A program made the translations under genes and the position numbers. Below are positions 27,573 to 57,079 of a stretch of DNA of 64,000 bases, one piece after another (position 1 is the stretch's first letter; every line of letters begins with the position of its first letter). The stretch is taken from positions 18,847 through 82,846 of the forward strand of contig JAZRKE010000010.1 in the NCBI GenBank assembly GCA_045646145.1. The letters run 5' to 3'. The DNA comes from Acutalibacteraceae bacterium. GTDB lineage: Bacteria; Bacillota; Clostridia; Oscillospirales; Acutalibacteraceae. The notes under the pieces were generated by a model, which saw only the letters and a program-made list of their open reading frames with translations, was not told the origin of the DNA and did not search any database.

Positions 27573-27877
27573 TAGATGTCGCCTCCTTAATTAGTTGGCG
27601 GGCAAAACTTACACCTTGCCGCGTGTTTCATTACGCCGCATTATAAAACCGGATTACTGGGGTTGCAGTAAAATCCGGGTACGGCAGACACCTGCCGCTA
27701 CACTTTCCGACTCGCAAGATGCCGTTAGTGTTCTGGTGCTCATTTCTTTCGCCCGGTTTAAAATCGGACATACTCCGCGGAAATTTCCTAACTCGAGGTT
27801 AGCCACCTCCCGCATCAACGCATGACAATACGCATAGCGTACTTGGGTATAATAACACACTTTAAATCAAAAATCAA
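27573..27877 (-). promoter_or_regulatory. promoter plus ~270-nt structured 5' leader of the S10 operon with a terminator-like hairpin
   Basis: On the minus strand: TTGATT (27872-27877), 17-nt spacer, TATTAT (27849-27854). The leader is GC-richer than its surroundings. It has hairpins at 27679-27701 and 27788-27802. A ccggatt..actg/cagt..aatccgg stem at 27649-27678 is followed by UUUU. Confidence 0.5.
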
Positions 27878-32565: not shown

Positions 32566-32843
32566 AATCTTCCTCCAAATAAAAAACGTCCCTTGTTAAA
32601 ACAAGGGACGAAATAATTTCCGTGGTTCCACCCAAATTATACATTATATATAATAATGTATCACTTTTGTACCTTTAACGCAGGTTTTACGTTTCGGTTC
32701 ACCGAACACTCAGGGGTGGTATTCATTTTATCCAACTTTAGCGACTCACACCAAATGCCGCACTCTCTGAAAAGCAAAATAAAACTACTCTTCCCATCAA
32801 CGCTTTTACAATATAATTATAGCATTAGGTTGCGAAAAGTCAA
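32566..32843 (-). promoter_or_regulatory. T-box riboswitch leader (Thr, ACC specifier) with promoter
   Basis: On the minus strand: TTGACT (32838-32843) and TATAAT (32816-32821). AGAGAG box present. Specifier loop GAAU-ACC-A, with the ACC codon at 32718-32720. T-box sequence UGGGUGGAACCACG at 32621-32634. Terminator cgtcccttgt-ttta-acaagggacg + U6 at 32581-32610. Confidence 0.9.
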
Positions 32844-40617: not shown

Positions 40618-41004
40618 ATGAGAAACTATTCAAAACAGCGTGAGGTGGTGCTAAAAGTATTATGCAGCACCGATACCCACCCAACAGTAAATTGGATATA
40701 CGAGCGCTGCCGTGAACAGCTGCCGCGCATTAGTCTCGGCACCGTCTACCGAAACCTGACCGAGCTTAAAAACGAGGGCAAAATAATTGAAATCGGTATG
40801 GGCGACGGCCTTCAGCACTTCGACGGTAATCCTGAAGCTCATCTGCATTTCAGTTGCAATAGGTGCGGCGGAATTTTTGACTGTATAAGTCCCGACGAAG
40901 AACTAAAAGCATTTATTGAAAAGGAACTCGGGTGTAAGGTTACTCATCAGAAATTGCTTTTTAGCGGAATATGTAAAAACTGTTCTGCTGAAGATATAAA
41001 TTGA
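40618..41004 (+). CDS. perR: Fur family transcriptional regulator (PerR-like)
   Basis: 128 aa, HPT...IY....ISLGTVYRNL wHTH, with CNRCGG and CKNC zinc sites. Directly upstream of rubrerythrin. Confidence 0.8.
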   Translation: MRNYSKQREVVLKVLCSTDTHPTVNWIYERCREQLPRISLGTVYRNLTELKNEGKIIEIGMGDGLQHFDGNPEAHLHFSCNRCGGIFDCISPDEELKAFIEKELGCKVTHQKLLFSGICKNCSAEDIN

Positions 41005-41031: not shown

Positions 41032-41574
41032 ATGAAAAAATTTGTATGTACTATCTGCGGTTATACTCACGAAGGAAATTCTGCTCCCGATGCCTGCCCA
41101 CTCTGCAAGGCTCCGGCTTCTAAATTCCAAGAGCAGGCAGGCGAAAAGACCTGGGCTGCCGAGCATATTGTAGGCGTAGCTAAGGGTGTTGACGAGCGCA
41201 TTATTGAGGGGCTTCGCGAAAACTTCAACGGCGAATGCAGTGAAGTTGGTATGTATCTTGCTATGGCAAGGGTTGCTCACCGCGAGGGCTATCCCGAAAT
41301 TGGTCTTTACTGGGAAAAAGCCGCTTACGAGGAGGCTGAACATGCCGCTAAGTTTGCCGAGCTTTTAGGCGAGGTTTTAACCGATTCGACAAAGAAAAAC
41401 CTCGAGATGCGTGTTGACGCCGAGAACGGCGCTACAATGGGCAAATTCGAACTTGCAAAACTTGCAAAAGAATTAGGCCTTGATGCGATCCATGACACCG
41501 TTCACGAAATGGCACGTGATGAAGCAAGACATGGCAAGGCATTTGAGGGACTTCTCAACCGTTACTTCAAATAA
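41032..41574 (+). CDS. rbr: reverse rubrerythrin (N-terminal rubredoxin-like CxxC..CxxC, C-terminal ferritin-like diiron domain)
   Basis: [11 protein letters not shown]...CPLCKAP followed by E..E..H diiron helices ([10 protein letters not shown]; [11 protein letters not shown]). GAGGTG RBS before ATG 41032. Confidence 0.9.
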
Positions 41575-41577
41575 GCA
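41518..41577 (+). repeat. att-like repeat copy 1 (functional 3' end of rbr; attL)
   Basis: Encodes [18 protein letters not shown]. Shares the 15-nt core TACTTCAAATAAGCA (41563-41577) with the copies at 50167-50181 and 52312-52326. Confidence 0.8.
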
Positions 41578-41615
41578 AAAACCCTTGTAAATCAAGGCTT
41601 TTTCGGAAATTAACA

Positions 41616-41650
41616 AAGGCACAGGATTTCAGTCCTGTGCCTTGTTTTTT
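41616..41650 (+). terminator. intrinsic terminator downstream of rbr (element-borne)
   Basis: aaggcacagga-tttcag-tcctgtgcctt + gT6. Confidence 0.8.
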
Positions 41651-41838
41651 GTGTTTGGTGCGAGTGCGAGTGCGAGAAAATCGCACGAAAATCAAATATT
41701 TTAATGCCTTGGGCGAACGAAAGTGCGATTTTCAAAAATCATCCGATAAAATCCGATGAAATCAGCACAAAACTGAAGATGTACGAAAAAGTAAGAGACA
41801 GGACCCGAAAGGACCCTGTCTCTAAAAATTTGCTCATA

Positions 41839-42288
41839 TCAATTTTCGTTTAACTCGGCATTTCCGTCATCCTTAGCATAGAGATTCAGAGTGTTATAAT
41901 AGTTAATAATCATTCTGTGCTTGTTCTCATTGCCCTTGACAATGTACTTTGGATTGACTTGATATACTCCGCTATGGATTTTTCGCAGAAAATCATTTTT
42001 CAATAATGTTCTGAAAGCGGTAGCAACTGTTTTTTCAGAGATTCCAGTTTTCTTTGCAACCTCTTTGTATGTTCCGATGAATGTATTATCGCTCTGTTTG
42101 ATGTGTTGCATGATATACAAAACAACATCCAACTGCTTACTGTTTGAAATGATACCCATAATGGTTAAAATATCGCTCAGCCAGATTTTCCAGAAGTTCT
42201 GACTTGAAACCTCTTTGTCAATCACAAGGTCCATGACCTCGCCCGTCTCACGGTTAACTGCATATGCATCTTGATATTTTCGGCTCAT
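41839..42288 (-). CDS. repL: RepL-type plasmid replication/maintenance protein
   Basis: 149 aa. QNFWKIWLSDILTIMGIISNSKQLDVVLYIMQHI..SDNTFIGTYKEVAKKTGISEKTVATAFRTLLKNDFLRK..SGVYQVNPKYIVKG parallels pSN2 RepL (GNFVKAYIVQLISMLDMIGGKKLKIVNYILDN...TREIAKATGTSLQTV...) as I recall it. Confidence 0.75.
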   Translation of the reverse strand: MSRKYQDAYAVNRETGEVMDLVIDKEVSSQNFWKIWLSDILTIMGIISNSKQLDVVLYIMQHIKQSDNTFIGTYKEVAKKTGISEKTVATAFRTLLKNDFLRKIHSGVYQVNPKYIVKGNENKHRMIINYYNTLNLYAKDDGNAELNEN

Positions 42289-42895
42289 CCTCCTTTGTCC
42301 TCCTTTCCATTGTATTTATCGTGTGGTTTTGAACTGCTCCATGGTAAATATGATGGAAAGGTTTTTTATTTGAGTGAAAACAGGTAAAATTTTTGCCCCT
42401 AAACAAGTAAGATTTTACCTCAAGAGTGGTAATATTTTACCTGTTGCAAAAGTGCCAAAAATCACTGTACTATATGGGTTTTTCGGTGTTTTCGGAAGTT
42501 GCTCCCTCTCTTCTTATATTCAATACCGATATTTTATCTGTAACGTTCGGATTGATAAAAGAAAAAGCAAATGCCAAAGGTAACGGCGACTGGCATTTGC
42601 GAAAGAGCAGAGTTTGCAAAAATAGTTATGACGAAATTTTTATATTCGGCACCTGTTGCGCCGCTTCCTGGTACCATGCAGAATTTTCTGCTCGTGTATG
42701 TGGCGAGAAGATTCTAAGCATTCTGTGGGGTTTTTCTTTTCCACGAGTTGCCGGCGATACCGCCACAAGATGTTCCTGTGTGTTTTTTATTGCGGACCGT
42801 TCTGTAAAACGGTCCGTTTTAGTTTGTTGGTTATTTCGGCGGCAATCCAAAAAGAAAGAAAGGACCGAGGTTCGGTCCTTTCGTGTGGGAGTGTA

Positions 42896-43216
42896 TCATT
42901 TGTTGTCGATGTGGTTCAACAGCTCTCCGAGGCGGTCACGCTCTGCCACAAGATGTGTGTAGAGTGATTTTGGTTTGATTCTTGCACCGCCTGTCTCCGC
43001 TTGTTTAATGTGGTGGTCCAGTTCTTTATAGTGCTGTCTGGTTGCTTCAATGTCCAGTGTCAGAGATGTGGGTTTTGCCCTTTTTGGCATTGGGTATTTT
43101 TTTACAAGTACGGTCATAACCAACTGATTGACAGAAGTACCCTTTTCATCAGCAACCGTTTTCAGATGGTTAATGTATTCCTCTTCGCAGTAAATGCGAA
43201 AATCCTTTTTGCTCAT
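42896..43216 (-). CDS. hypothetical protein, possible ribbon-helix-helix DNA-binding protein
   Basis: 106 aa. N-terminus FRIYCEEEYINHLKTVADEKGTSVNQLVMTVL resembles a beta-strand/helix/helix CopG-Arc pattern. AGGAG RBS. Divergent from mob. Confidence 0.5.
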   Translation of the reverse strand: MSKKDFRIYCEEEYINHLKTVADEKGTSVNQLVMTVLVKKYPMPKRAKPTSLTLDIEATRQHYKELDHHIKQAETGGARIKPKSLYTHLVAERDRLGELLNHIDNK

Positions 43217-43801
43217 AAAATCGCTCCTTTCGTAATACCTAAGATTTGCCGTAACAGGTGCGACCTGTTGGCAAATGGGCGGTTTAGGGTTTTTATACCT
43301 AAACCGCCGCGAGATGGCATCAAGGCCGACTCGCTCAAAGCAAGTATGAGGGAATTGCCAATTTTTTTGGCAATGAACCGAATGCTTGCTTCAGTTCGTG
43401 TCCTATGCTGAGTTTAGGCATCAATGACTAAACGAGGACAGGACGCGAACCAATAAAAGAGACAGCAATACACCACCACGGCGAGGTGTATTACACTGTT
43501 TCTTTTGGACGGGGATTTTTAAGGGGCGAAGCACCTTAAACGGTTCCAAGGCAGCGCCTTGGCTCACTCATAACGGACGTTATGTGTAGTGAGTGCATAG
43601 AACATCATTTTTATGAGGTTAGTATCAATCATACTTATTTTGTCCGCAGACGAAATGAGGATGATTAGATACGGGTTGACGAATATTGCTCCAACACCGT
43701 CCGAGGTGTTGAGAGGAATGTTTGGCAACAACAAGAAGCAAAGCAAAACTTCACAAAGTTTTGTTTTGGTTCTGGCTCATGGAAAGGAGGTTATAGGCAT
43801 T

Positions 43802-44818
43802 ATGAGCACAGGAAACAAAGCAATTTTTCGTGGTGCAAAATTGAACAGAGGCCGTGGAAAAACTTCTGTCGGAAGTGCATGGAGGCATCAAGAATTCCAC
43901 GAAAAATCTGCCGACATTTCGCACCCAGAATTATCACATAGAAATGCCACGAAACGTTATATAGAGAGTTATGATTTACTCCGCAAGAAAATCAATCAAA
44001 TCATAACTGACCACAACAAGCGAGCAGACAAGCAACGAGCAGAACTTTTAGCAAAAGGCATCAAAAAGAATCTGCCAAGGCGATTGAGAAAAGATGCTGC
44101 AGTTGCCTGCGAATGTATCTTCACATTCAGTCCAGAGATGGCAAGCAAAATTCCCATCAAAGAATGGGTCCATGCAAACCAAGCATTCATCAGACAAGAG
44201 TTCACAAGCAAGGGAGCGACACCTGTACGAATAGACTTGCATATGGACGAATCCTGTCCACATTTGCACTTCATTTTTTTGCCAACCACCAATGATGGAA
44301 GACTATCAGCAAAGGAATTTTTAGGTGGTGCCGGAAACCTCAGTCAGATGCAAGACCGCTATGCAGAGGCAATGGAACAGTTTGGTTTAACTCGTGGATT
44401 CTCTCGCTATAACCAGTATCAAGCGGTTATGAATATGGCGGTCAAAAATGGTTATGAGCAAAGTTCTGAAGGTGTCCGCAAATTCTGCATAGACAATGAC
44501 CTGCCAATTCCAGAGCGACGCCGACACCAAAGCAAGCACCAATGGCTGGCAAAACTGGAGGACCATATCCACGATTTGCAAGCACAGAAAAAAGAGATTG
44601 AGAGACAAATAAAAATCGCCGAGGACAACCTCGACGAAGCATTGCAAGTCAATCTCCAAAGACAGCGCGACGAATACAAAGCACGATGTGAGCATTTAGA
44701 ATCATTCGTGCAATCAAAGGACATGAAACCGCTGTGGGATACCTGGAACTTGATGAACAAAGGCAAATCCCACCCAAAAGCAATGGATGAAGATGATTTA
44801 TTCAACTCCCTTGAATAA
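43802..44818 (+). CDS. mob: MobV-family relaxase (plasmid recombination enzyme Mob/Pre)
   Basis: DLHMDESCPHLHFIFLP (HxDE...PHxH) motif and a coiled-coil C-terminus. AAGGAGG RBS before ATG 43802; the ORF-track start is 189 nt upstream. Confidence 0.85.
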   Translation: MSTGNKAIFRGAKLNRGRGKTSVGSAWRHQEFHEKSADISHPELSHRNATKRYIESYDLLRKKINQIITDHNKRADKQRAELLAKGIKKNLPRRLRKDAAVACECIFTFSPEMASKIPIKEWVHANQAFIRQEFTSKGATPVRIDLHMDESCPHLHFIFLPTTNDGRLSAKEFLGGAGNLSQMQDRYAEAMEQFGLTRGFSRYNQYQAVMNMAVKNGYEQSSEGVRKFCIDNDLPIPERRRHQSKHQWLAKLEDHIHDLQAQKKEIERQIKIAEDNLDEALQVNLQRQRDEYKARCEHLESFVQSKDMKPLWDTWNLMNKGKSHPKAMDEDDLFNSLE

Positions 44819-44872
44819 ATGTCGCACTCCATCAAACTTAAGATACAAAACAAATTGCAAGGAGGTAAAAAC

Positions 44873-46186
44873 ATGGATAAAGAGACATTAAGCAACTATG
44901 GATGGATTGTGATATGTGTTTTGGTGTTAGCAGTAATGATTGCTCTTGCAACTCCGTTTGGAAATTTCATTTGCGATGCAATATGGAGTACGGCAAATGG
45001 TCTGTTTAATACAAACAACAATGCACTGGATAACACTCTCGAAGATTTGGGAGTTGTGCCAACACCAGAGCAGTTGCAGGCAAGATATAAATTTGAATAT
45101 TATAGCACTTTGAACGGTGCGGTTAATGATGTCAACAATGGCACAATCGGAACAAATGCAGATGCGAACAAAGAGGATGCTGTCGCAGGAATTTATACAA
45201 ATGCAGGTCAGACATATGTGGTTCTGTTGAAAGACACAACAGAGGCAACAGTAGTGCAACCATCCGTGGATATGACCATCAATTTGGGAGGACATACATT
45301 ATCGGCGAATGATGACTATGGCATCAAAGTCTTGGGTGGCAATGTGAAAATTGATGGACGATTAACTGGAAGTTCCATTGAAATTTCTCGCTCTACTGGT
45401 AATTATGCGATGGCAATTTGGATTGAAAGTTCCGCTAATACTATTGTAGATGGCGGTATATATATCGGAGAATATATTGGTTCTAATATAAATCTCGCTA
45501 TCTATAATAGAGGTACGGCAACTTTTTCTAATTGCGACATTGTGGGAATATCTTCCGATGGGACCGCTGCCGGTGTGCAAAATAATGGTACGGCAACATT
45601 CGATAACTGCAACATTAAAGGTTATGCTAACTACACATACGGCGATGTTTCCTACTATGGCTCAAGTTCCATAGGCATTGTAAATCAAAATGTTCTAACC
45701 CTCAACGATTGCTATGCTATGGGAACACATTCTGGTATTACAAACCGTGGTGCTTTATATATCAACGGCGGTATCTATGAGGGGTATGGTCATGGTGGTA
45801 TTTATTTCAGCAATATCAATGCACCAGCATATGTTTGCAATGCAACAATCAGAGAATGTCAAATGCCAGATGGATACACCGTAACAGCAGGAGATAATAA
45901 TGCAGGTTTTTATATTGGTGGTTCTGCAGGAAAAGATAATATTGTTGTTTACATGGATAACTGCGACATTTATGGCAGTGTACAACCAATTGTCCTCCGT
46001 GGCTCTGATGGTGAACAAAACAACTCTCTATATATCAGTAATTCCAGAATCAATACTGAACGAAACATTAGAATCGACAATAATACCCACAGACTATATA
46101 TCGGAGTGGGTAACAATTTCACTGTCGATAATACAACCCTACCAAGTGCTGTTGTCACAACCAACGAAACATACACTCAGAAATAA
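44873..46186 (+). CDS. membrane-anchored protein with predicted right-handed beta-helix repeats, function unknown
   Basis: MDKETLSNYGWIVICVLVLAVMIALATPFG TM anchor, then repeated G..I/V.N.G.(A/L)T..NC.I motifs (NRGTATFSNCDIVG, NNGTATFDNCNIKG, NQNVLTLNDCYAMG, NRGALYINGGIYEG). GGAGG RBS. Confidence 0.65.
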   Translation: MDKETLSNYGWIVICVLVLAVMIALATPFGNFICDAIWSTANGLFNTNNNALDNTLEDLGVVPTPEQLQARYKFEYYSTLNGAVNDVNNGTIGTNADANKEDAVAGIYTNAGQTYVVLLKDTTEATVVQPSVDMTINLGGHTLSANDDYGIKVLGGNVKIDGRLTGSSIEISRSTGNYAMAIWIESSANTIVDGGIYIGEYIGSNINLAIYNRGTATFSNCDIVGISSDGTAAGVQNNGTATFDNCNIKGYANYTYGDVSYYGSSSIGIVNQNVLTLNDCYAMGTHSGITNRGALYINGGIYEGYGHGGIYFSNINAPAYVCNATIRECQMPDGYTVTAGDNNAGFYIGGSAGKDNIVVYMDNCDIYGSVQPIVLRGSDGEQNNSLYISNSRINTERNIRIDNNTHRLYIGVGNNFTVDNTTLPSAVVTTNETYTQK

Positions 46187-46190
46187 CATA

Positions 46191-46224
46191 AAACGGTATG
46201 AGGAAATTTCCTCATACCGTTTTC
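46191..46224. terminator. perfect palindromic bidirectional terminator
   Basis: aaaacggtatgagg-aaattt-cctcataccgtttt between convergent genes. Confidence 0.8.
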
Positions 46225-46230
46225 TTTCGT

Positions 46231-47319
46231 TTATTCTTCATCATCAGCATCCATGTGCATTTCCAGTCTGTAATAAATGTCAATGTCACGGATAATATCA
46301 TCAATATCAGAATCGCCCAGTTCAGAAGTCCACTCTTTCAATTCGTTGATAGTGATAACTTCCTCAATAGCCTTTTCGTATCGCTCACGAATAACTCTCA
46401 TGCCGTTTGCACGTTCTTCGATGTATGCTTCAAGGTCTCTGAGAACTGCCCGTTTACTGCTGTTGGTCTTGATAACAAAGGAAATCGGGAAGTGCATAAC
46501 CTTGTCAATATCAAGCAGATATTTATCATAACTGCTGACCTCGGTAACTTGGAAGAATCTGCCCACAGGTCGCATTACAAAGTCAATGCCACCATCATTT
46601 GCATTAGTTCTGCCAGTTTTGAACAGCTGCAGTTCTTCCTCACGGATTGTATCAAGGGTATAGCCAAAATAAACCTTGATGTTTTTGTAATGGTTTCTCA
46701 GAATGGCATAACTGATAATTTCAAAGATTCGTGCCTCTGCATCCTCGTTCAAAAGGGCGGTAATCTGATTCTTTTTCTCTGTATAATCAGTCAGTTCCTG
46801 CATCTCCTGCAAAATCTGAATCAGTGCATGGTCCTTTGCAATCAGCAAATCAATGTATTTTTCAATTACCTTAACGGCAGTTTTGCTGATGTCAGTCTGA
46901 CCAACATACAGGTAATCAATATGTAACAGATACTTGCCGTTATCAATGATAATCAAATCGTTGGTGATGGTCGGGAATTTATTCTTAAATTCGCCATTCA
47001 CACGAGAATTGAGGGCATGGTTCTGCAACTTGCTACCGCCGTACAGACTGCGGTAGTGGTTAAACAGTTTCATATAATCATAACCGCCGAAATTTCTGTA
47101 TCTGTCCGGCTGGTTATAGAAATCTGCTTGGTAAAAATGCAGAATGGAGTAAATAGCATAGATGTTTGCAAGACTTCTTCTTGTCTTGCTATTGCCATGT
47201 ACTGCCTTCATCTTTTTGTCCAGATACTGCAAAAGCAAACTGGAATCATATATTTGTTGGAAGTTGTCGGGATGCTCCGCTTGGAGTATCTCTTTCACAA
47301 ATTCTTCGGTAATTCTCAT
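46231..47319 (-). CDS. putative restriction endonuclease partner of the adjacent methyltransferase (family not recognised)
   Basis: 362 aa, begins 1 nt after the methylase stop. The C-terminal half has EARIFEIISYAIL...TGRTNANDGGIDFVMRPVGRFFQVTE, loosely Mrr-cat/PD-(D/E)xK-like. Confidence 0.5.
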   Translation of the reverse strand: MRITEEFVKEILQAEHPDNFQQIYDSSLLLQYLDKKMKAVHGNSKTRRSLANIYAIYSILHFYQADFYNQPDRYRNFGGYDYMKLFNHYRSLYGGSKLQNHALNSRVNGEFKNKFPTITNDLIIIDNGKYLLHIDYLYVGQTDISKTAVKVIEKYIDLLIAKDHALIQILQEMQELTDYTEKKNQITALLNEDAEARIFEIISYAILRNHYKNIKVYFGYTLDTIREEELQLFKTGRTNANDGGIDFVMRPVGRFFQVTEVSSYDKYLLDIDKVMHFPISFVIKTNSSKRAVLRDLEAYIEERANGMRVIRERYEKAIEEVITINELKEWTSELGDSDIDDIIRDIDIYYRLEMHMDADDEE

Positions 47320-47320
47320 A

Positions 47321-48280
47321 TCAATCCCTCACGTACTTGGATTTTGCGGAGGTCTTTCGTACCTTCTCTTTTACAAGTGCCTTTCCGTTGTATTCTGTGG
47401 CAATGCCAGTTCTTCTGAGGCCAATTTCAAAGTATTCCTCATTCATATCAATACCAACACCAACTCTGCCCAAACGGACAGCAACGGCAGATGTTGTAAA
47501 GGACCCAGAGAATGGGTCAAGCACTACATCGCCGGGATTGGAAGATGCTTTGATGATTCGCTCCAAAAGTGCCTCGGGTTTTTGCGTCGGGTGGTTTTCG
47601 TATTCCTCCATCTTGAAACGAACACGACTGAAATCCCACACATTCCCTGGAACCTTTTCGGTATTGTAAGGCTGCGGAGGGTCTTTGCGATAGTCAATCA
47701 ATTTTCTGGTGGCGCCAGTCTTTGCCTCTACCATAATGTCTTGATGGTTAAAGGTGTATTTTGCCTTTGCACTCTTGTTAATCATCAAAATGGGTTCATA
47801 CAGAGAACCATACATTTTCTTAGATTGAACACCGGAACTGTCATAGGTCCAGACGATTCTGCAAAGAACATTATATTTTTGAGTTGCATATATGTCGAGA
47901 TATGGCATGTGCTGAGTGGCGGTCATAAAATACATCGAACCGTCATCGGTGAGGATTCGCATACATTCATCAATCCACTCTTTGCACCAGTTAATATATG
48001 CCTCAACGGTTTCCCATTTATCTTGGTTGTTTCCAAAGTCTTTGCCTATGTTGTAGGGTGCATCTGCAAAAATCAGTTTTACGGAATTGCTTTTTATTTT
48101 TCTGAGAACTTCAAGGGAATCTCCGAGGATTGCCATTGAATTGTTGCTGTGCATTTCAGTAATACCATCTGTATCAACAAACATATCTTCAAACGGATAT
48201 GCAGGAACGTCTGCAGGAACCACAACAGGGGCATCGACCTTGGTTTCTTCTATGAAATCAAAACTCAGTTGTTGGTCCAT
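47321..48280 (-). CDS. beta-class N6-adenine/N4-cytosine DNA methyltransferase (PF01555-like)
   Basis: Motif IV variant IFADAPYN precedes the SAM motif VLDPFSGSFTTS. Start at the ATG preceded by GGGAGG (MDQQLSFDF...). Confidence 0.85.
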   Translation of the reverse strand: MDQQLSFDFIEETKVDAPVVVPADVPAYPFEDMFVDTDGITEMHSNNSMAILGDSLEVLRKIKSNSVKLIFADAPYNIGKDFGNNQDKWETVEAYINWCKEWIDECMRILTDDGSMYFMTATQHMPYLDIYATQKYNVLCRIVWTYDSSGVQSKKMYGSLYEPILMINKSAKAKYTFNHQDIMVEAKTGATRKLIDYRKDPPQPYNTEKVPGNVWDFSRVRFKMEEYENHPTQKPEALLERIIKASSNPGDVVLDPFSGSFTTSAVAVRLGRVGVGIDMNEEYFEIGLRRTGIATEYNGKALVKEKVRKTSAKSKYVRD

Positions 48281-48660
48281 GACACTGTTCCTCCCTTGGG
48301 TAAACACAATAATTTACATTATAGTATAGCACAAAGAATCGAAAAAAGCCATAGGTCCCAGAAAAATGTCGCAAAGTATTTACAAAATTTCCTCATAAAC
48401 ATTTCTGTATATAATACCGATAACACGGAGAGCGATTCTGCGGTTTGCAATCGTGGAATTATCGGAGGACCGCCCCAACGATATTATATACAGTAAATTA
48501 GTGATATTATATACAGAAACTTTTTAGCATTTCCGCTGTACGGCGGTTATTTTTATTTATGAGAGAATTTTGTAATTCTGGACCCTGCCTCTTCCAGGCG
48601 GAACCGGTTCAGAATCATCTGCAGATAAAATCAAAACGGACCCTTTTCGGGTCCGTTCTG

Positions 48661-49992
48661 TTATTTGCGGTATTTGGTTCTTCTGCCCTTGCTGTCGATG
48701 GTCTCCACGAAGTCTGCCGGAGGTTCATCCAGAATCGGAAGTGCGGAATGGTATGTAAACATTCCATCAAGGATGTGGGCAGTTCTCTTTTTCAGAGGTT
48801 CATTGTCGGTATTGATGTAGTATCTTCTGGTGGTGTCAATCTTCTTATGTCCCATCATGGTCATGAGCATTTGCAGATTGACATTGCTCGCAGCACAAGT
48901 GCTTGCATAGGTGTGACGGAGGTTGTGATACTTAAATTCGATGCCGAGTTCTGCCTTGATTTTCTTGCTCCAGTACTTGGTGGAATTGTTGGTCAGCAAT
49001 TCGCCATTGCTCTTGCGATTGATGAAATCGCCCCCGACAATCCATTCTCCACGGACTTCATCATATACTTGCTCGGTATTCCTGTAACCTTGTCCGAGTT
49101 TGCTTTGCTCTTTTCTCTGTTGCTCAAAGTAACCGTCCAGATAGTCCTGCAGGAAAGCAGGCATGATGACTTGGCGAATACTCGTTAAGGTCTTTACTGC
49201 ACAGAGTTTCCAGATGCCGTCCTCATAATGCAACTGTCTGTTGACGGTAATTGTACCCTCTTCCCAGTTGATGTTTTCCCATCTGAGGGCGAAACATTCG
49301 GAGATACGGAGACCGCAATACAGACCGAGGTAAAAGGCGGTCAGCAAATTTCCATCCTCGCTTTTGAAAATCTTTTCCATTGCAAGGAGGTGTTCATCAT
49401 CGTAGACCTCTGCACCCTCTTCAGATTCTTCAAAATCTGCCTGTGTCATTTTGGGCATTGTCAACCGTTTTCCCTTAGTGACAAACATACGGAGATAACG
49501 GTCGGGGTTAATGACTTCCATACGGTCTGCATGACCGAACAGCAGATAGAAGAATTTCAAAAATCCCTCGGTGTACTTGTAGGAGTATTCCTTGTATAAG
49601 TCACTGAGAAATGTCTGCAATTCGATGATGGTAATGGAATCAATTTCTCTGTCACCGAATTTCGGTCCTACATGGTTTTTCCACATGGAGTTCTGCTTGG
49701 TAATGGTTGCAACTGCTCTGTCCTGTCCTTCGGTGGAGAGATAGTTGTCATAAACGTCCTGCAAGGTCGTTTTATGCCGTTTAGGGGCATTTTCCGTTGG
49801 ATTGGCACGGATGCTTGTCTCATGTGCCTTTTTCGCCTCGTAGGCGGCTCTGGCGGTCAGAAAAGCATTGCCGTTATCATCTTTCTTTCGCTCGGTGTTG
49901 ACCACTCTACCATCGGGCAATTTCATCTTGATACGGTATTTCCAACCACCCTCTGGCAGTTGAGAAACGCCTGGATATTTGTTTTTTGCCAT
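48661..49992 (-). CDS. int: tyrosine-type site-specific recombinase/integrase
   Basis: MAKNKYPGVSQLPEGGWKYRIKM... (Arm-binding-like N-terminus). C-terminal HNLRHTYAS...GHKKIDTTRRYY catalytic signature. GGGAGG RBS before ATG 49992. Terminator hairpin at 48635-48657. Confidence 0.92.
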   Translation of the reverse strand: MAKNKYPGVSQLPEGGWKYRIKMKLPDGRVVNTERKKDDNGNAFLTARAAYEAKKAHETSIRANPTENAPKRHKTTLQDVYDNYLSTEGQDRAVATITKQNSMWKNHVGPKFGDREIDSITIIELQTFLSDLYKEYSYKYTEGFLKFFYLLFGHADRMEVINPDRYLRMFVTKGKRLTMPKMTQADFEESEEGAEVYDDEHLLAMEKIFKSEDGNLLTAFYLGLYCGLRISECFALRWENINWEEGTITVNRQLHYEDGIWKLCAVKTLTSIRQVIMPAFLQDYLDGYFEQQRKEQSKLGQGYRNTEQVYDEVRGEWIVGGDFINRKSNGELLTNNSTKYWSKKIKAELGIEFKYHNLRHTYASTCAASNVNLQMLMTMMGHKKIDTTRRYYINTDNEPLKKRTAHILDGMFTYHSALPILDEPPADFVETIDSKGRRTKYRK

Positions 49993-50121
49993 CTGTACAT
50001 CCTCCCATTTGTTGTTCCCTCGCATATATGATAGCAAAATGTTAGGGCTATAGCAAGTGCGAATTTGTGAACAAACGGCAAAAAATGCTTGAAATTCAAG
50101 GGTTTTCAGCCATAGTCTCAA

Positions 50122-50245
50122 GATGAGGCTCGCCACGGCAAAGCTTTCGAAGGTTTACTTAACAGATACTTCAAATAAGCAGAAACCGCATAAAATAAGG
50201 GTTTTCAGGACATTCACCGTTTTGGTGGATGTCCTTTCCTTTTTC
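50122..50245 (+). repeat. att-like repeat copy 2 (displaced surrogate rbr 3' end + downstream terminator; attR of the IME)
   Basis: Encodes [18 protein letters not shown] with 15 synonymous differences from copy 1. 50126-50199 is identical to 52271-52344. Confidence 0.8.
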
Positions 50246-50489
50246 TGCATATCTTTTTTATTGTGCTTTACTTTTCAAACTATGTGTGGTAAAATAACTA
50301 CATACCACACTACATTTGAATAATCGATAAGTGTTTATATCCAATTAGGGAGAATACTACCTTGGTAAAAGGTGTTCTCTCTTTCTCCCTTTGCGGATAT
50401 TTATCGGTGTAGTGTGGTAACGAAACCGAGGGAAACACTTTTTCGGCACATCCTTCGGGGTGTGCTTTTTTAATTAAGGGGTAAAATCT

Positions 50490-50708
50490 ATGAGAAAAAA
50501 GCAGATATTTGATGTAACCGGCACACCATTAACACCATCAAGACAAGGTCGCAAATGTCTGGGGAATGGTGAGCATCCAGAATATGAAATTTGTTGTGAT
50601 GAATGCGATTATTATTTGTATTGTTTTCCACAGTATAATTGGCAGTCAAAGATAAATAGATTAAAAAAGAGATTTTATAAGTTATTAGAGAGAATTCTTA
50701 TGCGATAA
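50490..50708 (+). CDS. hypothetical small Cys-rich protein
   Basis: 72 aa, ...RKCLGNGEHPEYEICCDECDYYLYCFP... AAGGGG RBS. Confidence 0.5.
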   Translation: MRKKQIFDVTGTPLTPSRQGRKCLGNGEHPEYEICCDECDYYLYCFPQYNWQSKINRLKKRFYKLLERILMR

Positions 50709-50812
50709 TTTATTTATAACATTTTTATATGTGCAACAAACCGACTTTCAGCGTTATTGGTTGTGTAATTTTTGAAAATGTCTTTTGAACATTTTTCAAT
50801 ATGAGCCACATC

Positions 50813-50866
50813 ACGGGAAAGCTTTTGAGGGTCTGCTCAACAGATATTTTAAATAATCAACAACTA
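50813..50866 (+). repeat. att-like repeat copy 3 (degenerate rbr 3' end)
   Basis: Translates to [17 protein letters not shown]. The core has diverged (tattttaaataatca). Confidence 0.65.
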
Positions 50867-51059
50867 ATGGCCCCCTTGTGCAAAGGGGGCTGTCATTTTT
50901 TTAAATAACTGGGGGATTGTTCAGATTATTATTTACAATCCCTCCGTCAAAATCCACGATTTTGCCACCTCCCTTTACACAAGGGAGGCTTTTTTATTGC
51001 AAAACGCGCAAAAATATGCTATCATAACGGTAGCACATCTTTTGTTTTGAGGTGATAGA

Positions 51060-51656
51060 ATGAAAAAATATTACTGCCCTTACTGCGGCGAACTAACTTT
51101 TTCAAGTTATCAAAAATATACGAGTAATCACTGTGGTGTTGGTGAGTCTGCAAGGAAAGCAATGTTTTTCACCTGTCGCAACTGTCTTAATGAAATCGAA
51201 CGAAAAAGCACACCGCAAGGAAAGAAAATTTTAAATTATATTATACCGATTTATTTGATTTTGGCATTGGCATTTTTGGTTTTCGTTGTTGTTGAAATCT
51301 ATACATTGATGTTTATAATGTTAGCTTTTATTATTTTATTTTCTTTTATTTTAACCTTCGTTTTAGGGAAAACCTGTATTCTTTCACGAATTGATGGTAA
51401 TTACAACGATACATTATTTCCAATAGAAATTGATTCTAAAGAAATAAGTGTTGGTGGTGTATATTTATTAAAACCCACAGGCAGTGAATTAAATAAAGTA
51501 TCTGTTTGTAGGGAATATATTGCTGAGATAACAAAGGATAATTTAAATCAATATTTTGTTAGAGTAATCAAACCTGTTGACTGCACATTTGAACCTCTGG
51601 AATTTTCAATTTATGATGATAAGAAATGTATTGGAACAGGCACCCTTTTGGTGTGA
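51060..51656 (+). CDS. hypothetical membrane protein with N-terminal zinc ribbon
   Basis: YYCPYCGE...CRNCLNE, two TM helices and a C-terminal ~90-aa domain. GAGGTGA RBS. Confidence 0.6.
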   Translation: MKKYYCPYCGELTFSSYQKYTSNHCGVGESARKAMFFTCRNCLNEIERKSTPQGKKILNYIIPIYLILALAFLVFVVVEIYTLMFIMLAFIILFSFILTFVLGKTCILSRIDGNYNDTLFPIEIDSKEISVGGVYLLKPTGSELNKVSVCREYIAEITKDNLNQYFVRVIKPVDCTFEPLEFSIYDDKKCIGTGTLLV

Positions 51657-51758
51657 TAAAACGGTATCTTAAAACAGTAACGCATCTTTTTGTAAGATTT
51701 ACGATTTTTTGTTTACATATATAACAGCGTTGAAAATTTTTTGTTTTGGGGTGATTTA

Positions 51759-52193
51759 ATGAAGAAAGCAAAAAAGTATATTTATCCTTTTATTATTTCA
51801 ATAGTATTTTTCATATTTCTTTTTATTTCAGTGGCTATTATAAACAACTTTTATGGTCACCGCGAGGGATATGGCGGACTTGGTATTGCCCTATTGCTTA
51901 TAATACTATGGATATTAGTAGCGATACCTGTTTATTGTTTTAAATATATTAAACTTATTTATGAAGAAAAGCGGAAGTCCTTATTCATCATTTACAATTC
52001 ACTTGTGGTTTCCCTTTGTTATACAGGACCTTTTTTCAAGCCTGCCGTATCTAGTAGTGATGTTGACATAATCATTAAGATTACTCTCGCCCTTTTCGGT
52101 TGGGTGGCAATTTGCACATATATTTCATATCTTATACGAATAAATACTACTAAAGAATTGTCTGAAAACAATTTAAACGAAACTCAAAGATAG
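51759..52193 (+). CDS. hypothetical polytopic membrane protein (paralog of 53069 gene)
   Basis: 144 aa from MKKAKKYIYPF. Shares INNF...GYGGLG(I/L)A.L.I.LW.L..IP.YC..Y..LI......F.IYN.LV....YT.PFF with the 53069 product. Confidence 0.6.
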   Translation: MKKAKKYIYPFIISIVFFIFLFISVAIINNFYGHREGYGGLGIALLLIILWILVAIPVYCFKYIKLIYEEKRKSLFIIYNSLVVSLCYTGPFFKPAVSSSDVDIIIKITLALFGWVAICTYISYLIRINTTKELSENNLNETQR

Positions 52194-52266
52194 TGTGACA
52201 AAAGTGTGATTTTAAAAACACATGCCATAAACCCTCGATTTCAAGCAGTTTTTGAGCATTTTTCAA

Positions 52267-52390
52267 GATAAGGCTCGCCACGGCAAAGCTTTCGAAGGTT
52301 TACTTAACAGATACTTCAAATAAGCAGAAACCGCATAAAATAAGAATTTTCGGGACATTTACCGCTTTGGTGGGTGTCCTTTGTTTTTTC
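52267..52390 (+). repeat. att-like repeat copy 4 (rbr 3' end remnant + terminator)
   Basis: Encodes [18 protein letters not shown]. Has the identical 15-nt core at 52312-52326, followed by the hairpin gggacatttacc..ggtgggtgtcct. Confidence 0.8.
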
Positions 52391-52492
52391 CAGAACATTA
52401 ACAAAACGGCTTGAACAAAAAAGAGGGTTATGCTATACTGTACACATAATATAGTGATTTTAGCAAATCCAGACTCTAAGGGGGAACCTTAA

Positions 52493-53059
52493 TTGAAAAA
52501 GTTATTAGCAATCATATTCGTATTGGTCCTTGTACTCGGCTTAGTGGGCTGTGTAGACACTTCAAAAGATAACTCTGGCAAAACCGATGAAACTGCCGCC
52601 GCAACCCCCAATACTACAACATCACAAACACAAAATACACCCGAGATAATAAATCCCACTGACGTGGAAATTCCTGACTCGTACGATGAACAATGGGCTC
52701 TCCTATACAAAGTGTTTGTTCCTATTGCAGGCGAAAAGGTTGAACGCGATTGGAAGACCGTTGACGCATTCATCAATACCGCTGGGTATAAGTGTATAGT
52801 AGATGAAGGAATCTTTAGTATTAGCGACCCATATCGCGAAGGAAGTTACATCAGCGGTATGCTAACTACTAAAAATGGTTATATAGAAATTTGCGATATA
52901 TATTACAACATTCAAATAGCAGGAAAGAATTATAAATCCGGTGTTGATTGGTATAAGAATACTCGATATTTAATCGAAGTAAACGAATTTTCCCAAACTT
53001 CCACCGAGGTAGCCTCTTTATCGAAGGTTGTAGAGTACATTAGAGGCACTGAAAAATAA
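52493..53059 (+). CDS. hypothetical lipoprotein
   Basis: TTG start after AAGGGGGA. MKKLLAIIFVLVLVLGLVGC lipobox. Confidence 0.6.
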   Translation: MKKLLAIIFVLVLVLGLVGCVDTSKDNSGKTDETAAATPNTTTSQTQNTPEIINPTDVEIPDSYDEQWALLYKVFVPIAGEKVERDWKTVDAFINTAGYKCIVDEGIFSISDPYREGSYISGMLTTKNGYIEICDIYYNIQIAGKNYKSGVDWYKNTRYLIEVNEFSQTSTEVASLSKVVEYIRGTEK

Positions 53060-53068
53060 TGTGATTTT

Positions 53069-53535
53069 ATGAAAAATTTTTTTACATTTAGCAGCCCTAT
53101 TTTATTTTCCGCGTTTTCTTATTTGGCATATATTATTATGGTTTTCATTATAAACAATTTTGTGGAATTTAAAGATTACGGGGGCCTTGGACTTGCGTTT
53201 TTAATTATATTTCTGTGGGTATTGATTATTATCCCGATTTATTGTTATTTATATTATAGGCTTATAAGAAACAATCGGTTAAAGTTTATATTCGCTATTT
53301 ATAATCCCTTAGTTATAGCATCTTCTTATACATTGCCTTTTTTCTACAAGGTGAGTATTTTATTATCATTTTCCAGATTGCTATGGCTCTTTTAGTTTGG
53401 TGGTTGATTTGGTGTCTTTTACCATTATTTATAAAACCAAAACAAAATAATGAGGATATCATAAAACAAGAACCTGCCGATTTTTTGTTGCAAAGCAAGA
53501 AGAAAAATATAATTGCAATTTGTTTTACGTGCTAA
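53069..53535 (+). pseudogene. frameshifted paralog of the 51759 membrane-protein gene
   Basis: Frame 0 stops at 53395. The -1/+2 frame, open from 53305 to 53535, continues the paralog alignment (IIIFQIAMALLVWWLIWC vs IIIKITLALFGWVAIC). A T6 run at 53338-53343 lies at the switch point. Confidence 0.55.
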
Positions 53536-53810
53536 AAACTCTATTCCTTGCAGCTATGTTTACGGGAACACTTTTTAATTTCAAATATATAAAGTTACTT
53601 AAATGCGGGGCGCTAGGCCTTGCCGTACTGTCGGTCGGTTTGCTTATATTTGAACTGATAAATGTCGGTGGGACTGTGTATCATCAAATCGATTCAAACG
53701 GGACACTTGCTATAAACACCTCCATGGTTATACATTTTTTCTTGCGAGCATTGTATTTTGTTGGAATTTCTATTCTGGCATCAAACAAAAGAAGTTCCGA
53801 ATCAGTTTGA
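53520..53810 (+). CDS. hypothetical small membrane protein (start uncertain)
   Basis: Hydrophobic 96-aa ORF. No convincing RBS at TTG 53520 or ATG 53556. Confidence 0.35.
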   Translation: MFYVLKTLFLAAMFTGTLFNFKYIKLLKCGALGLAVLSVGLLIFELINVGGTVYHQIDSNGTLAINTSMVIHFFLRALYFVGISILASNKRSSESV

Positions 53811-53894: not shown

Positions 53895-54176
53895 ATGAAG
53901 AAAATTTTAGCAATCATTTTATCGGCTATTTTTATTTTTGGGCTTTGCGCCTGTGCTAACCGACCGGCACTCAGTGCCGATGATGCTCTCAATATAGCCT
54001 TAAATCAGGCAGGGGTTACAAGAGATAGCATTCGTAACCTTGAAAACCGGCTTGAGTGGGATGACGGCATTCAGGTTTACGAAATTGATTTTGATTCGGG
54101 CGCTACCGAATATTCCTTTGATGTAAACGCTCAGACAGGCGCCATAGTTGAGCGCGACCGAGGTATAATAGATTAA
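53895..54176 (+). CDS. PepSY domain lipoprotein
   Basis: MKKILAIILSAIFIFGLCAC lipobox. PepSY-like ...SADDALNIALNQAGV......E.D.GIQVYEIDF.....EYSFDVNAQTGAIV. GGGAGG RBS. Confidence 0.8.
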   Translation: MKKILAIILSAIFIFGLCACANRPALSADDALNIALNQAGVTRDSIRNLENRLEWDDGIQVYEIDFDSGATEYSFDVNAQTGAIVERDRGIID

Positions 54177-56844: not shown

Positions 56845-57079
56845 AAAATTTAAAAAGAGCCTCTGTTTTTTCACAGAAGCTCTGAAATTAAAAGACATTA
56901 CACAATTTATAAAAATTGTACGCTCTGTCCTTTTGCCTGAGAGATTCGGTTTTTACCTTGCACCTTCGGCACCCGCTATATCGGGATTCTCCAGAGTATT
57001 CTCCACACTCGGTCGTTACCTTCCGAGAGCTTCTGCGAAAACAATATCTGTATTATACACCTATTTTTACATTTGTCAA
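56845..57079 (-). promoter_or_regulatory. glycine riboswitch (single aptamer) with promoter and expression-platform terminator
   Basis: On the minus strand: TTGACA (57074-57079) and TATAAT (57052-57057). Aptamer CUCUGGAGAAUCCCG...CGGGUGCCGAAGGUGCAAG...AAUCUCUCAGGCAAAAGGACAGAGCG at 56921-56996. Terminator agagcttctg..cagaggctct + U-run at 56845-56883. Confidence 0.88.

What the first reader, a model, noticed from the sequence alone, without database searches (positions are those of the whole stretch)
50122..52390. Accretion array: four copies of the rbr 3' end, with a 74-nt perfect direct repeat bracketing a 2.1-kb integrase-less segment
Seen: besides the functional end (41518-41577) there are three more in-frame remnants. 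They are 50122-50178 ([18 protein letters not shown]), 50813-50866 ([17 protein letters not shown], degenerate) and 52267-52323 ([18 protein letters not shown]). 50126-50199 is identical to 52271-52344 (74 nt). The next ~45 nt are about 80% similar and contain the same terminator hairpin. The bracketed 50200-52270 carries no recombinase, only three small ORFs. Established: decayed elements flanked by att sites (CIMEs) can persist beside an ICE/IME after tandem site-specific accretion and can be mobilised in cis. Inference: this locus is a repeatedly used integration hotspot holding one intact IME plus one or two decayed cassettes. The integrase at 48661-49992 might still excise them singly or as composites.
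Basis: partly seen in the sequence, partly recalled or inferred. Interest (0 to 1): 0.65.

Follow-up and report, generated by a model that had tools for sequence, protein, structure and literature searches.

The report
Stacked mobile elements behind rubrerythrin gene
The end of the rubrerythrin gene in this gut Clostridia genome is a repeatedly used docking site: one intact mobilizable element and at least two small integrase-less gene cassettes are stacked there, each having brought its own replacement copy of the gene's last 19 codons, and the same kind of cassette stack recurs in related bacteria.

Summary
The window holds exactly four copies of the rbr 3' end (41518, 50122, 50800, 52267), and 50126-50199 equals 52271-52344 (74 nt), the only exact repeat of 30 nt or more in the 64 kb. 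Only tail C's coordinates were 10 nt off.

- The integrase (48661-49992) belongs to a family that sits beside an rbr tail in 18 of 19 relatives with enough flank.
- Strand exchange lies in the first 15 nt of the 57-nt repeat. The working tail A and its terminator are therefore IME-borne, and each older tail was pushed downstream.
- Tail copies differ almost only at synonymous sites (window 41:0; all arrays 174:24). Each evolved as a real gene end, not as a local duplicate.
- The 80 nt left of tail D match a profile of cassette arms from other genomes (E=1.4e-14). The arm left of C is decayed, so 50137-52281 now reads as one composite bounded by B and D.

Related MAGs carry integrase-less stacks of up to five tails with single-gene cassettes (0.4-1.1 kb). 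This is IME/CIME-type accretion at a target not found reported, in an unusually miniaturised form. Present-day mobility is untested, because no same-strain reads exist.

The parts
41032..41577 (+). rubrerythrin gene (rubredoxin-like N-domain plus rubrerythrin), the target gene; preceded by a Fur/PerR-family gene at 40618-41004
   Evidence: Pfam RUBY_RBDX and Rubrerythrin, FUR
41518..41577 (+). Tail A = attL: the working last 19 codons plus stop of rbr. From about 41533 onward inferred to be IME1-borne
   Evidence: exchange point
41578..41732 (+). IME1 left (P') end: direct-repeat motif CTTGTAAATCAAGGCTTTTTCGG at 41584-41606, terminator hairpin plus T-run at 41618-41651, GTGCGA x3 at 41658-41675, arm-type motif AAGTGCGATTTT at 41721-41732
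41839..42288 (-). IME1 RepL-family replication protein
   Evidence: Pfam RepL, E=3e-28
43613..44818 (+). IME1 relaxase (Mob_Pre / MobV type)
   Evidence: Pfam Mob_Pre, E=3e-18
44819..46186 (+). IME1 cargo ORF, 455 aa, no family match
46231..48307 (-). IME1 type II restriction-modification pair: REase 46231-47319 and N6/N4 methyltransferase 47321-48307
   Evidence: PADLOC REase_II, E=2.5e-80; Pfam N6_N4_Mtase, E=3e-56
48661..49992 (-). IME1 tyrosine integrase, 443 aa. Residues at the positions of the catalytic R..K..HxxR..H..Y set are conserved (R229, K267, H356, R359, H382, Y391/Y392)
   Evidence: Pfam Phage_integrase plus Phage_int_SAM_3; invariant columns in alignment A2
50018..50121 (+). 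Integrase-proximal (P) arm of IME1: motif AAGTGCGAATTT at 50055-50066, direct-repeat motif CTTGAAATTCAAGGGTTTTCAG at 50088-50109, ending in TCTCAA
   Evidence: profile of arms from 10 other elements, E=8e-11; motif search
50122..50178 (+). Tail B = attR of IME1. The first ~15 nt are IME1 core; the rest is the rbr end that was in use before IME1 arrived, and is the left end of cassette E2
50126..50199 (+). 74-nt segment identical to 52271-52344
50137..50814 (+). Cassette E2 (~0.68 kb, no integrase): terminator 50207-50235, structured RNA-like leader 50285-50475 with its own terminator 50445-50466, 72-aa Cys-rich ORF 50490-50708, degenerate arm remnant 50763-50799
50800..50856 (+). Tail C: decayed att site. 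The first four codons are mutated (YEPH) and the arm has an internal deletion; the last 15 codons are intact
50815..52281 (+). Cassette E3 (~1.47 kb, no integrase): terminator 50867-50893, hairpin-rich repeat 50867-50990, terminator 51017-51035, 198-aa ORF 51060-51656, 144-aa membrane-protein ORF 51759-52193. It corresponds to the first cassette of L128, with the 198-aa gene added
52186..52266 (+). Arm D: canonical cassette arm, starting at the stop codon of the 144-aa ORF. Motif AAGTGTGATTTT at 52202-52213, then CGATTTCAAGCAGTTTTTGAG, ending in TTTCAA
   Evidence: cassette-arm profile from L115/L128/L129, E=1.4e-14; IME-arm profile, E=1.5e-5; motif search
52267..52323 (+). Tail D ([18 protein letters not shown]), followed by terminator 52352-52380; the right boundary of the 2.1-kb composite
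52324..53810 (+). Probable older, decayed cassettes beyond D: lipoprotein ORF 52493-53059, arm remnant TGTGATTTTATGAAAAA at 53060-53080, truncated c144-family ORF 53069-53395 (55% identical to the last cassette ORF of L129), 96-aa membrane ORF 53520-53810. The PepSY gene at 53895-54176 also lies downstream of rbr in several relatives (24-39% protein identity)
   Evidence: low G+C of 0.30-0.37

Best explanation
The locus is a stack built by serial site-specific integration at the 3' end of rbr.

How the stack forms. A family of tyrosine integrases, here the one at 48661-49992, recombines an element-borne site with the chromosomal rbr end. The element-borne site has three parts: an ~85-nt arm with the motifs AAGTGYGATTT and CAAGSGTTTT, a 57-nt copy of the last 19 rbr codons, and a terminator. 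Exchange occurs within the first 15 nt of the 57-nt segment (GAYGARGCNCGNCAY). As a result the incoming element's own tail and terminator become the new end of rbr, and the previous tail is displaced to the far side of the element. Repetition gives a layered record.

The layers in this window.
- IME1 (~41533-50136) carries RepL, a MobV relaxase, type II R-M and Int.
- Cassette E2 (~50137-50814) carries an RNA-like leader and a 72-aa ORF.
- Cassette E3 (~50815-52281) carries 198-aa and 144-aa ORFs.
- Older decayed units lie beyond tail D.

E2 and E3 have no recombinase. The site between them (C) is degraded, so they now form one 2.1-kb composite bounded by B and D, which are 82 nt alike with one mismatch. 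Every tail encodes the same C-terminal peptide, so any integration or excision leaves Rbr unchanged.

Shown: the anatomy, the family's site specificity, the exchange region in close relatives, the independent origin of the tails, and the homology of arm D to cassette and IME arms.

Inferred: the order of arrival, and that the IME1 integrase could still act on A x B, B x D or A x D.
For: - Four tails and no more; 74-nt identity; each tail has its own terminator, 9 terminator-like sites against 1.3 expected.
- Relatives of Int at 34-75% identity lie next to an rbr tail in 18 of 19 metagenome loci with full-length Int and enough flank, and in L001-L009.
- Complete elements sit between Fur-rbr and a remnant tail in L005, L006, L093 and L095.
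- Exchange region: L001 and L002 carry the same IME (97% identical) in two hosts. They are identical through the arm and GACGAGGCTCGACA, then take host-type tails and unrelated flanks. L090 has the same arm followed by GATGAAGCTCGGCAT and then an unrelated gene start, a secondary-site insertion.
- In GC-rich hosts (L093, L005) the displaced tail keeps host codon usage in its 3' half, while the working tail does not (read directly).
- Residues never seen in working tails are concentrated at codons 1-4 of remnant tails.
- Tail copies within arrays differ by 174 synonymous against 24 non-synonymous codon changes; in the window the count is 41 to 0.
- Arm D matches profiles built only from other loci. 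The motif AAGTGYGRWTTT occurs exactly three times in the 64 kb, at equivalent positions: 41721, 50055 and 52202.
- Homologous cassettes occupy different layers in other genomes.
- The three-step accretion scheme with CIMEs is established for streptococcal ICEs and IMEs (PMC5704250).
Against: - No same-strain reads or assemblies exist, so no excision junction, circular form or empty site was seen for this genome.
- A and B share no identical block of 6 nt or more in the first 40 nt of the repeat; the only long shared block is TACTTCAAATAAGCA at the stop codon. The exchange point is therefore transferred from relatives at 74-75% identity, not shown for IME1 itself.
- Conservative recombination does not explain why B and D are perfectly identical for 74 nt while their terminators are 76% identical.
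- The c144 cassette is about as diverged between the window and L128 (77.5% nt) as rbr is (77%). That fits long vertical inheritance rather than recent movement.
Confidence: 0.82

Rival explanations
1. Mini-cassette capture system. The integrase-less units are not wrecks of larger IMEs. They are streamlined non-autonomous cassettes (replacement tail, terminator, usually one ORF, ~85-nt arm) that are captured, stacked and shuffled at the rbr end by integrases supplied in trans from IMEs such as IME1. This would be functionally analogous to an integron array.
For: - Integrase-less stacks occur with five tails in L115-L119 and four cassettes in L129. Units are 0.39-1.1 kb, and L129 has no integrase within 10 kb.
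- ORFs of at least three unrelated families end 0-5 nt before the arm start TAGTGTGAYAAAAGTGTGATTT. That is hard to obtain by independent deletions.
- Arms are conserved at E=1e-14 to 1e-21 although non-coding.
- Tails are kept under protein-level constraint.
- Cassette order differs between species: c72 lies before c144 in the window and after it in L120. The c144 cassette is first after rbr in L128, L120 and L122, second in L115 and third in L129; in the window it lies behind IME1 and E2.
Against: - No circular cassette, empty site or strain-level presence/absence was observed. L122 and L123, 99.4% identical, differ only by a 250-nt indel that is not at a tail.
- Cassette divergence tracks host divergence.
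- Each tail is followed by a terminator, so there is no obvious common promoter.
- Paralogous c144 cassettes could arise by unequal recombination between tails.
- The arm pattern is absent from viral contigs, and the cassette-arm profile hit only one of the 80 species loci (L045).
Confidence: 0.35
2. Fossil scars. The tails are leftovers of IMEs that came and were later deleted. The genes between them are ordinary chromosomal neighbours of rbr, and nothing except IME1 can move now.
For: - c144-family genes were next to rbr in every locus examined: 5 homologues looked up, giving 15 places, plus L045.
- The E2-like unit in L001 runs straight into the PepSY gene with no second tail.
- Tail C and the units beyond D are visibly decayed.
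- Cassette divergence is about equal to host divergence.
Against: - Arm D and the arms in L115, L128 and L129 are well conserved and correctly spaced.
- Remnant tails keep intact coding sequence at codons 5-19, which neutral decay in place would not give.
- Repeated deletions ending exactly at the arm are unlikely.
Confidence: 0.3
3. Local tandem duplication or slippage of the rbr end, followed by drift and gene conversion, with no site-specific integration involved for the 2.1-kb segment.
For: B and D are perfectly identical for 74 nt, and neighbouring tails in L129 are identical for 63-84 nt. This shows some homogenising process acts within arrays.
Against: - Unique flanks are not duplicated.
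- A, B/D and C differ at 8-11 nt, all synonymous.
- Arm D is homologous to integrase-proximal arms of elements in other genomes.
- Homologues of E2 and E3 occur separately elsewhere.
Confidence: 0.04

Closest known systems
ICE/IME-CIME tandem accretion in streptococci (ICESt1/ICESt3 and CIMEs at the 3' end of fda; IMEs at 3' ends of rpsI, tRNA-Lys and others)
   Same: Tyrosine-integrase elements target the 3' end of a gene and carry a replacement end. Decayed or integrase-less units keep attL and attR. A newcomer integrates beside them and gives tandem arrays with several possible excision patterns (review PMC5704250).
   Different: The target is rubrerythrin, which no paper found in the library searches names as an integration target. 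The hosts are uncultured gut Clostridia (Acutalibacteraceae/Oscillospiraceae MAGs). The integrase-less units are far smaller (0.4-1.5 kb, mostly one ORF) and recur as a family, with up to five tails in a row.
Integrons (IntI, attI, attC cassettes)
   Same: Head-to-tail array of small, mostly single-gene cassettes, each ending in a recombination site. A tyrosine recombinase is involved, and the newest unit lies next to the attachment point.
   Different: The integrase scores far below the integron-integrase models (26.6 bits against a cut-off of 265). It sits on a mobile IME rather than on a fixed platform. The sites are double-stranded att sites with arm motifs plus a copy of a gene end, not folded attC. 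Each cassette carries a terminator rather than relying on a common promoter.
Actinomycete integrative plasmids pSAM2 and SLP1, and similar elements with long att identity to a tRNA gene 3' end (own knowledge)
   Same: [quoted passage not shown] This is comparable to the 74-82 nt shared by B and D.
   Different: Those targets are tRNA genes; here it is a protein-coding end kept under amino-acid constraint. No cassette stacks are described for those elements.
pdif modules of Acinetobacter plasmids (XerC/D-dependent; own knowledge)
   Same: Small recombinase-less gene modules bounded by recombination sites and moved by a recombinase encoded elsewhere.
   Different: They use the host Xer system and 28-bp dif-like sites, and involve no gene-end replacement and no chromosomal hotspot.

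Membership tests
Integrative and mobilizable element (IME): block ~41533-50136 | Encodes its own site-specific integrase | tested here: met
   443-aa tyrosine recombinase with the Phage_integrase domain and conserved residues at the catalytic positions
Integrative and mobilizable element (IME): block ~41533-50136 | Carries a relaxase and/or oriT but no conjugation (mating-pore) module | tested here: met
   A Mob_Pre relaxase is present. No T4SS or coupling-protein domain was found in any ORF of the block. oriT was not mapped.
Integrative and mobilizable element (IME): block ~41533-50136 | Bounded by attL/attR direct repeats at a specific target | tested here: met
   Tails A and B bound it. Related elements are bounded in the same way at rbr in L005, L006, L093 and L095.
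Integrative and mobilizable element (IME): block ~41533-50136 | Excises, circularises and is mobilised by a helper conjugative element | not testable with these tools
   No same-strain sequencing runs exist.
CIME (cis-mobilizable element): 50137-52281 | Flanked by attL- and attR-type sites of an ICE/IME integrase family | tested here: met
   Tails B and D, plus arm D, which matches arm profiles from other loci (E=1.4e-14 and 1.5e-5). The arm motif is at the same spacing as in IME1.
CIME (cis-mobilizable element): 50137-52281 | Lacks integration and transfer genes | tested here: met
   Only three ORFs, with no family hits.
CIME (cis-mobilizable element): 50137-52281 | Derived from an ICE/IME by loss of its recombination and transfer modules | tested here: inconclusive
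   Its arm is homologous to IME arms. However, the ORF-to-arm junction is shared by many unrelated cassettes, which fits a dedicated mini-cassette as well as a deletion derivative.
CIME (cis-mobilizable element): 50137-52281 | Can be excised or mobilised by the integrase of a neighbouring element | not testable with these tools
   This needs junction PCR, long reads or a recombination assay.
Integron | IntI-type integrase adjacent to attI, with a Pc promoter | tested here: not met
   The integrase hits the integron-integrase models at 15-27 bits against cut-offs of 265-435. It is at the far end of a mobile IME. Terminators follow every tail.
Integron | Cassettes end in attC sites (imperfect palindromes recombined as folded single strands) | not tested
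   The cassette ends are an arm plus a gene-end copy homologous to IME attP arms. Single-strand folding of these sites was not examined.

The most novel reading that the evidence does not exclude
In a clade of gut Clostridia the 3' end of rbr serves as the attachment point of an integron-like capture system that uses an integrase supplied in trans. In this reading, single-gene mini-cassettes are inserted and reshuffled by integrases borne on visiting IMEs. Each cassette carries a replacement 19-codon gene end, a terminator and an ~85-nt arm. The 50137-52281 composite would be two such cassettes still able to move.
Probability: 0.3. Interest if true: 0.78.

Novelty: new variant of a known kind. 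Interest (0 to 1): 0.58.

Why it matters
- It adds rubrerythrin, an oxidative-stress gene of anaerobes, to the list of protein-gene ends used as docking sites. In 80 related species representatives, 6 carry extra tails.
- It defines an integrase/att pair, with the exchange region narrowed to 15 nt. That pair could become a site-specific integration tool for Oscillospirales, which are hard to manipulate genetically.
- The layered tails act as a readable history of successive arrivals.
- If the single-gene cassettes prove mobile, this would be a second, independent route to integron-like gene capture. It would be built from ordinary IME att sites and populated by small membrane proteins of unknown function.

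Tried and rejected
- Exact-protein look-ups of the window's rbr (both possible starts) and of the integrase found nothing on record.
- SRA word search found no same-strain run; the best share of words was 0.12 for rbr and 0.06 for the cassettes.
- Laying contigs of four metagenomes gave only related species. The 'joints' 41513->50812, 41553->50183 and 41574->51017 are rbr genes of other species aligning to whichever tail they resemble, not excision products.
- Rfam has nothing in 50000-52600.
- IME1 has no megablast match in PLSDB plasmids.
- The cassette-arm pattern is absent from viral contigs, and the integrase family has no viral relative above 26% identity.
- I first took the B/D-type 3' flank (AAACCGCATAAAATAAGGGTTTT plus terminator) to be the native rbr flank. 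I dropped this after finding it in only about 7 of 79 species loci, mostly those with elements, and as the left end of the L095 element.
- I considered an exchange point at the stop codon (the 15-nt block TACTTCAAATAAGCA shared by A and B). I rejected it for the family because of L001/L002 and L090. It is not excluded for IME1 itself.
- L017 is not an empty site. It carries the left end of an L095-like element.
Full report
**Observation**

The window holds a Fur-family gene (40618-41004) followed by a rubrerythrin gene (41032-41577). The last 19 codons of rbr recur three more times on the same strand.
- Tail B: 50122-50178.
- Tail C: 50800-50856.
- Tail D: 52267-52323.

A nucleotide profile built from 112 tails of other loci finds exactly these four in the 64 kb (E from 3e-16 to 1e-11; the next hit has E=3.6).

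50126-50199 equals 52271-52344. This is the only exact direct repeat of 30 nt or more in the window. The following 51 nt are 76% identical and form matching terminator hairpins. The bracketed DNA has three ORFs (72, 198 and 144 aa) with no family match and no recombinase.

**The intact element**

Between A and B lie seven ORFs:
- a RepL-family gene;
- a 106-aa ORF;
- a Mob_Pre relaxase;
- a 455-aa ORF;
- a type II restriction enzyme and its methyltransferase;
- a 443-aa tyrosine integrase, read away from B.

The integrase keeps conserved residues at the catalytic positions. [quoted passage not shown] It has no near match among plasmids, and its integrase family has no relative above 26% identity in viral contigs.

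**Site specificity of the integrase family**

The protein search returned 287 relatives at E<=1e-20. Contexts fetched for the 74% and 65% relatives show an rbr tail remnant 130-190 nt from the integrase start. In L005 and L006 the whole element lies between Fur-rbr and that remnant.

A metagenome scan with an integrase alignment gave 25 loci. Of the 19 with a full-length relative (34-75% identity) and enough flank, 18 have a tail beside the integrase. L093 and L095 show complete elements of 6.8 and 5.5 kb. A subfamily at 40-46% identity has the integrase in the other orientation but uses the same target.

In a scan of 80 species-representative genomes with rbr, 6 carry extra tails within 10 kb, three of them with an integrase at 35-37% identity. 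The rbr end is thus a target for a broad integrase clade.

**Where the strands are exchanged**

- L001 and L002 hold the same IME (identical integrase protein, DNA 97% identical) in two hosts. Their arms and the first 14 nt of the repeat (GACGAGGCTCGACA) are identical. After that the tails differ at 3 of 18 and then 8 of 25 positions, and everything after the stop codon is unrelated. L002's tail and flank resemble the rbr end of L045; L001's resemble the B/D type.
- L090 carries the same arm followed by GATGAAGCTCGGCAT and then the start of an unrelated membrane-protein gene. This is an insertion at a secondary site, and it puts the exchange within the first 15 nt.
- Among 35 distinct remnant tails, residues never seen in working tails occur in 9-17% at codons 1-4 and in 0-6% at most later codons.
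- In the GC-rich hosts of L093 and L005, the displaced tail keeps host-like codons in its 3' half and the working tail does not (read).

The consequence is that the incoming element supplies the new end of rbr and its terminator, and the old end moves to the far side. Tail A from about 41533 on, the motif at 41584-41606 and the terminator at 41618-41651 are therefore IME1 DNA. The left end of the related L093 element shares AAACCCTTGTAAAT right after the stop.

This exchange point is transferred from relatives. A and B themselves share no block of 6 nt or more in the first 40 nt.

**The tails arose independently**

A, B (=D) and C differ at 8-11 nucleotides in codons 5-18, and every difference is synonymous (41 synonymous codon differences against 0 across the pairs). 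Over all arrays examined the count is 174 to 24. Copies drifting in place would accumulate mostly non-synonymous changes. Each tail therefore diverged while serving as, or tracking, a real rbr end. Together with the non-duplicated flanks, this rules out a simple local duplication.

**The integrase-less units are bounded by element-type sites**

A profile of integrase-proximal arms from ten elements in other loci hits the window at 50018-50114 (IME1's own arm, E=8e-11) and at 52191-52264, left of D (E=1.5e-5). A profile made only from cassette arms of L115, L128 and L129 hits 52186-52259 at E=1.4e-14.

The motif AAGTGYGRWTTT occurs exactly three times in the window:
- 145 nt right of A's stop (41721);
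- 67 nt left of B (50055);
- 65 nt left of D (52202).

The arm left of C is a remnant with an internal deletion, and C's first four codons read YEPH. C therefore looks inactive, and E2 plus E3 now form one composite bounded by B and D.

**Relatives of the cassettes**

- E2 (terminator, RNA-like leader, 72-aa ORF) follows the displaced tail in L001 and runs into a PepSY gene. A related species in run X3 has the same sequence after rbr.
- E3 corresponds to the first cassette of L128, a MAG with the same upstream synteny (DUF4363, DUF421, Rex, Fur, rbr). Tail plus hairpin region is 85-91% identical, and the c144 gene plus arm plus tail is 77.5% identical. The 198-aa gene is an addition in the window.
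- All five c144 homologues looked up, and L045, lie just downstream of Fur-rbr.
- They sit in integrase-less stacks:
  - five tails in L115-L119, with units of 0.39-1.1 kb;
  - four cassettes in L129, each an ORF plus arm, the first three followed by a further tail, with no integrase within 10 kb;
  - three tails in L122-L127.
- ORFs of at least three unrelated families end 0-5 nt before the arm start TAGTGTGAYAAAAGTGTGATTT.
- Beyond D, the truncated ORF 53069-53395 is 55% identical to the last cassette ORF of L129, and an arm remnant follows the lipoprotein gene. The stack therefore probably continues as older, more decayed layers up to the PepSY gene, which also lies downstream of rbr in several relatives.

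**Comparison with what is known**

The three-step scheme is described for streptococcal ICEs and IMEs: integration, decay to an att-flanked CIME, then integration of a newcomer (PMC5704250). This locus fits it. Three things differ:
- the target gene, since none of three literature searches found a paper naming rubrerythrin as an integration site;
- the host group;
- the small size, uniform architecture and recurrence of the integrase-less units, which recall integron cassettes.

The integrase is not an integron integrase. The sites are homologous to ordinary IME att arms, and each unit carries a terminator.

**What remains open**

- No data bear on present mobility.
- Cassette divergence between the window and L128 matches that of rbr, so long vertical inheritance with occasional additions on top is a sufficient account.
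- The perfect 74-nt identity of B and D is not produced by conservative exchange in the first 15 nt. L129 shows the same neighbour-to-neighbour homogenisation, over 63 and 84 nt. Short-tract gene conversion, or a unit whose att segment already matched this host lineage, are the candidate explanations.

**Verdict**

This is a new variant of a known kind of structure, of moderate interest. Interest would be higher if the cassettes prove to be individually mobile.

Noticed in passing
window 50285-50475 (+); also L017 5149-5321 (-), L001 ~9560-9750 (-), L095 ~8670-8870 (+): A conserved ~190-nt structured RNA-like element. It has an extended -10 box just upstream, a long closing stem (ATACCACACTACATT / GGTGTAGTGTGGTA), an invariant hairpin (ACCTTGGTAAAAGGTGT) and its own intrinsic terminator. 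It lies upstream of unrelated genes: the 72-aa Cys-rich ORF here and in L001, and a 215-aa gene in L017 that I read as SLOG-like from its sequence (no family search run). RNAalifold gives 51 pairs, 5 of them with compensatory changes. There is no Rfam match at E<=1. It is a candidate new leader, riboswitch or small RNA.
   Followed up: partly
window 50867-50990: A hairpin-rich element (GGCCCCCTTgtgcAAGGGGGC, GTCATTTT..., ACTGGGGGATTG...CAATCCCTCC, CCTCCCTTtacacAAGGGAGG). Its word depth is 450-970 in four unrelated metagenomes, against about 25-250 for rbr. Related copies follow tails in L128, L129, L010 and L035. It looks like a very widespread small repeat of gut Clostridia.
   Followed up: partly
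L129 7738-10660 (GCA_045661005.1): Neighbouring tails are pairwise homogenised. T1 and T2 are identical for 63 nt starting mid-tail, and T3 and T4 for 84 nt, while their 5' 30-36 nt differ at 7-8 positions. This is the same kind of pattern as B=D in the window and is unexplained.
   Followed up: partly
L090 1-231: A 75%-identical relative of the integrase, with the same arm as L001/L002, is inserted not at rbr but at the start of a membrane-protein gene whose first codons (ATGAAGCTCGGCAT) mimic the core GAYGARGCNCGNCAY. This is a secondary-site insertion.
   Followed up: yes
L017 3735-3905: This species representative looks unoccupied but carries the left end of an L095-like element after rbr (3' motif, terminator, palindromic GTGTG sites), with no integrase nearby. 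Apparent 'empty sites' in this clade can be occupied by remnants.
   Followed up: partly
window 41658-41675: GTGCGA repeated three times in tandem just inside the IME1 left end, near the arm-type motif at 41721. These may be integrase or accessory-protein binding sites.
   Followed up: no
window 48380-48575: Several inverted repeats (48397-48423 / 48498-48524 and 48380-48399 / 48556-48575) lie in the 350-nt gap between the methyltransferase and integrase genes of IME1. They are possibly a regulatory region.
   Followed up: no
window 56915-57004 (-), 32601-32809 (-), 27749-27826 (-): Rfam matches above the gathering score elsewhere in the window: a glycine riboswitch upstream of the Na/Ala symporter gene, a T-box leader, and an S10 ribosomal-protein leader.
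   Followed up: no
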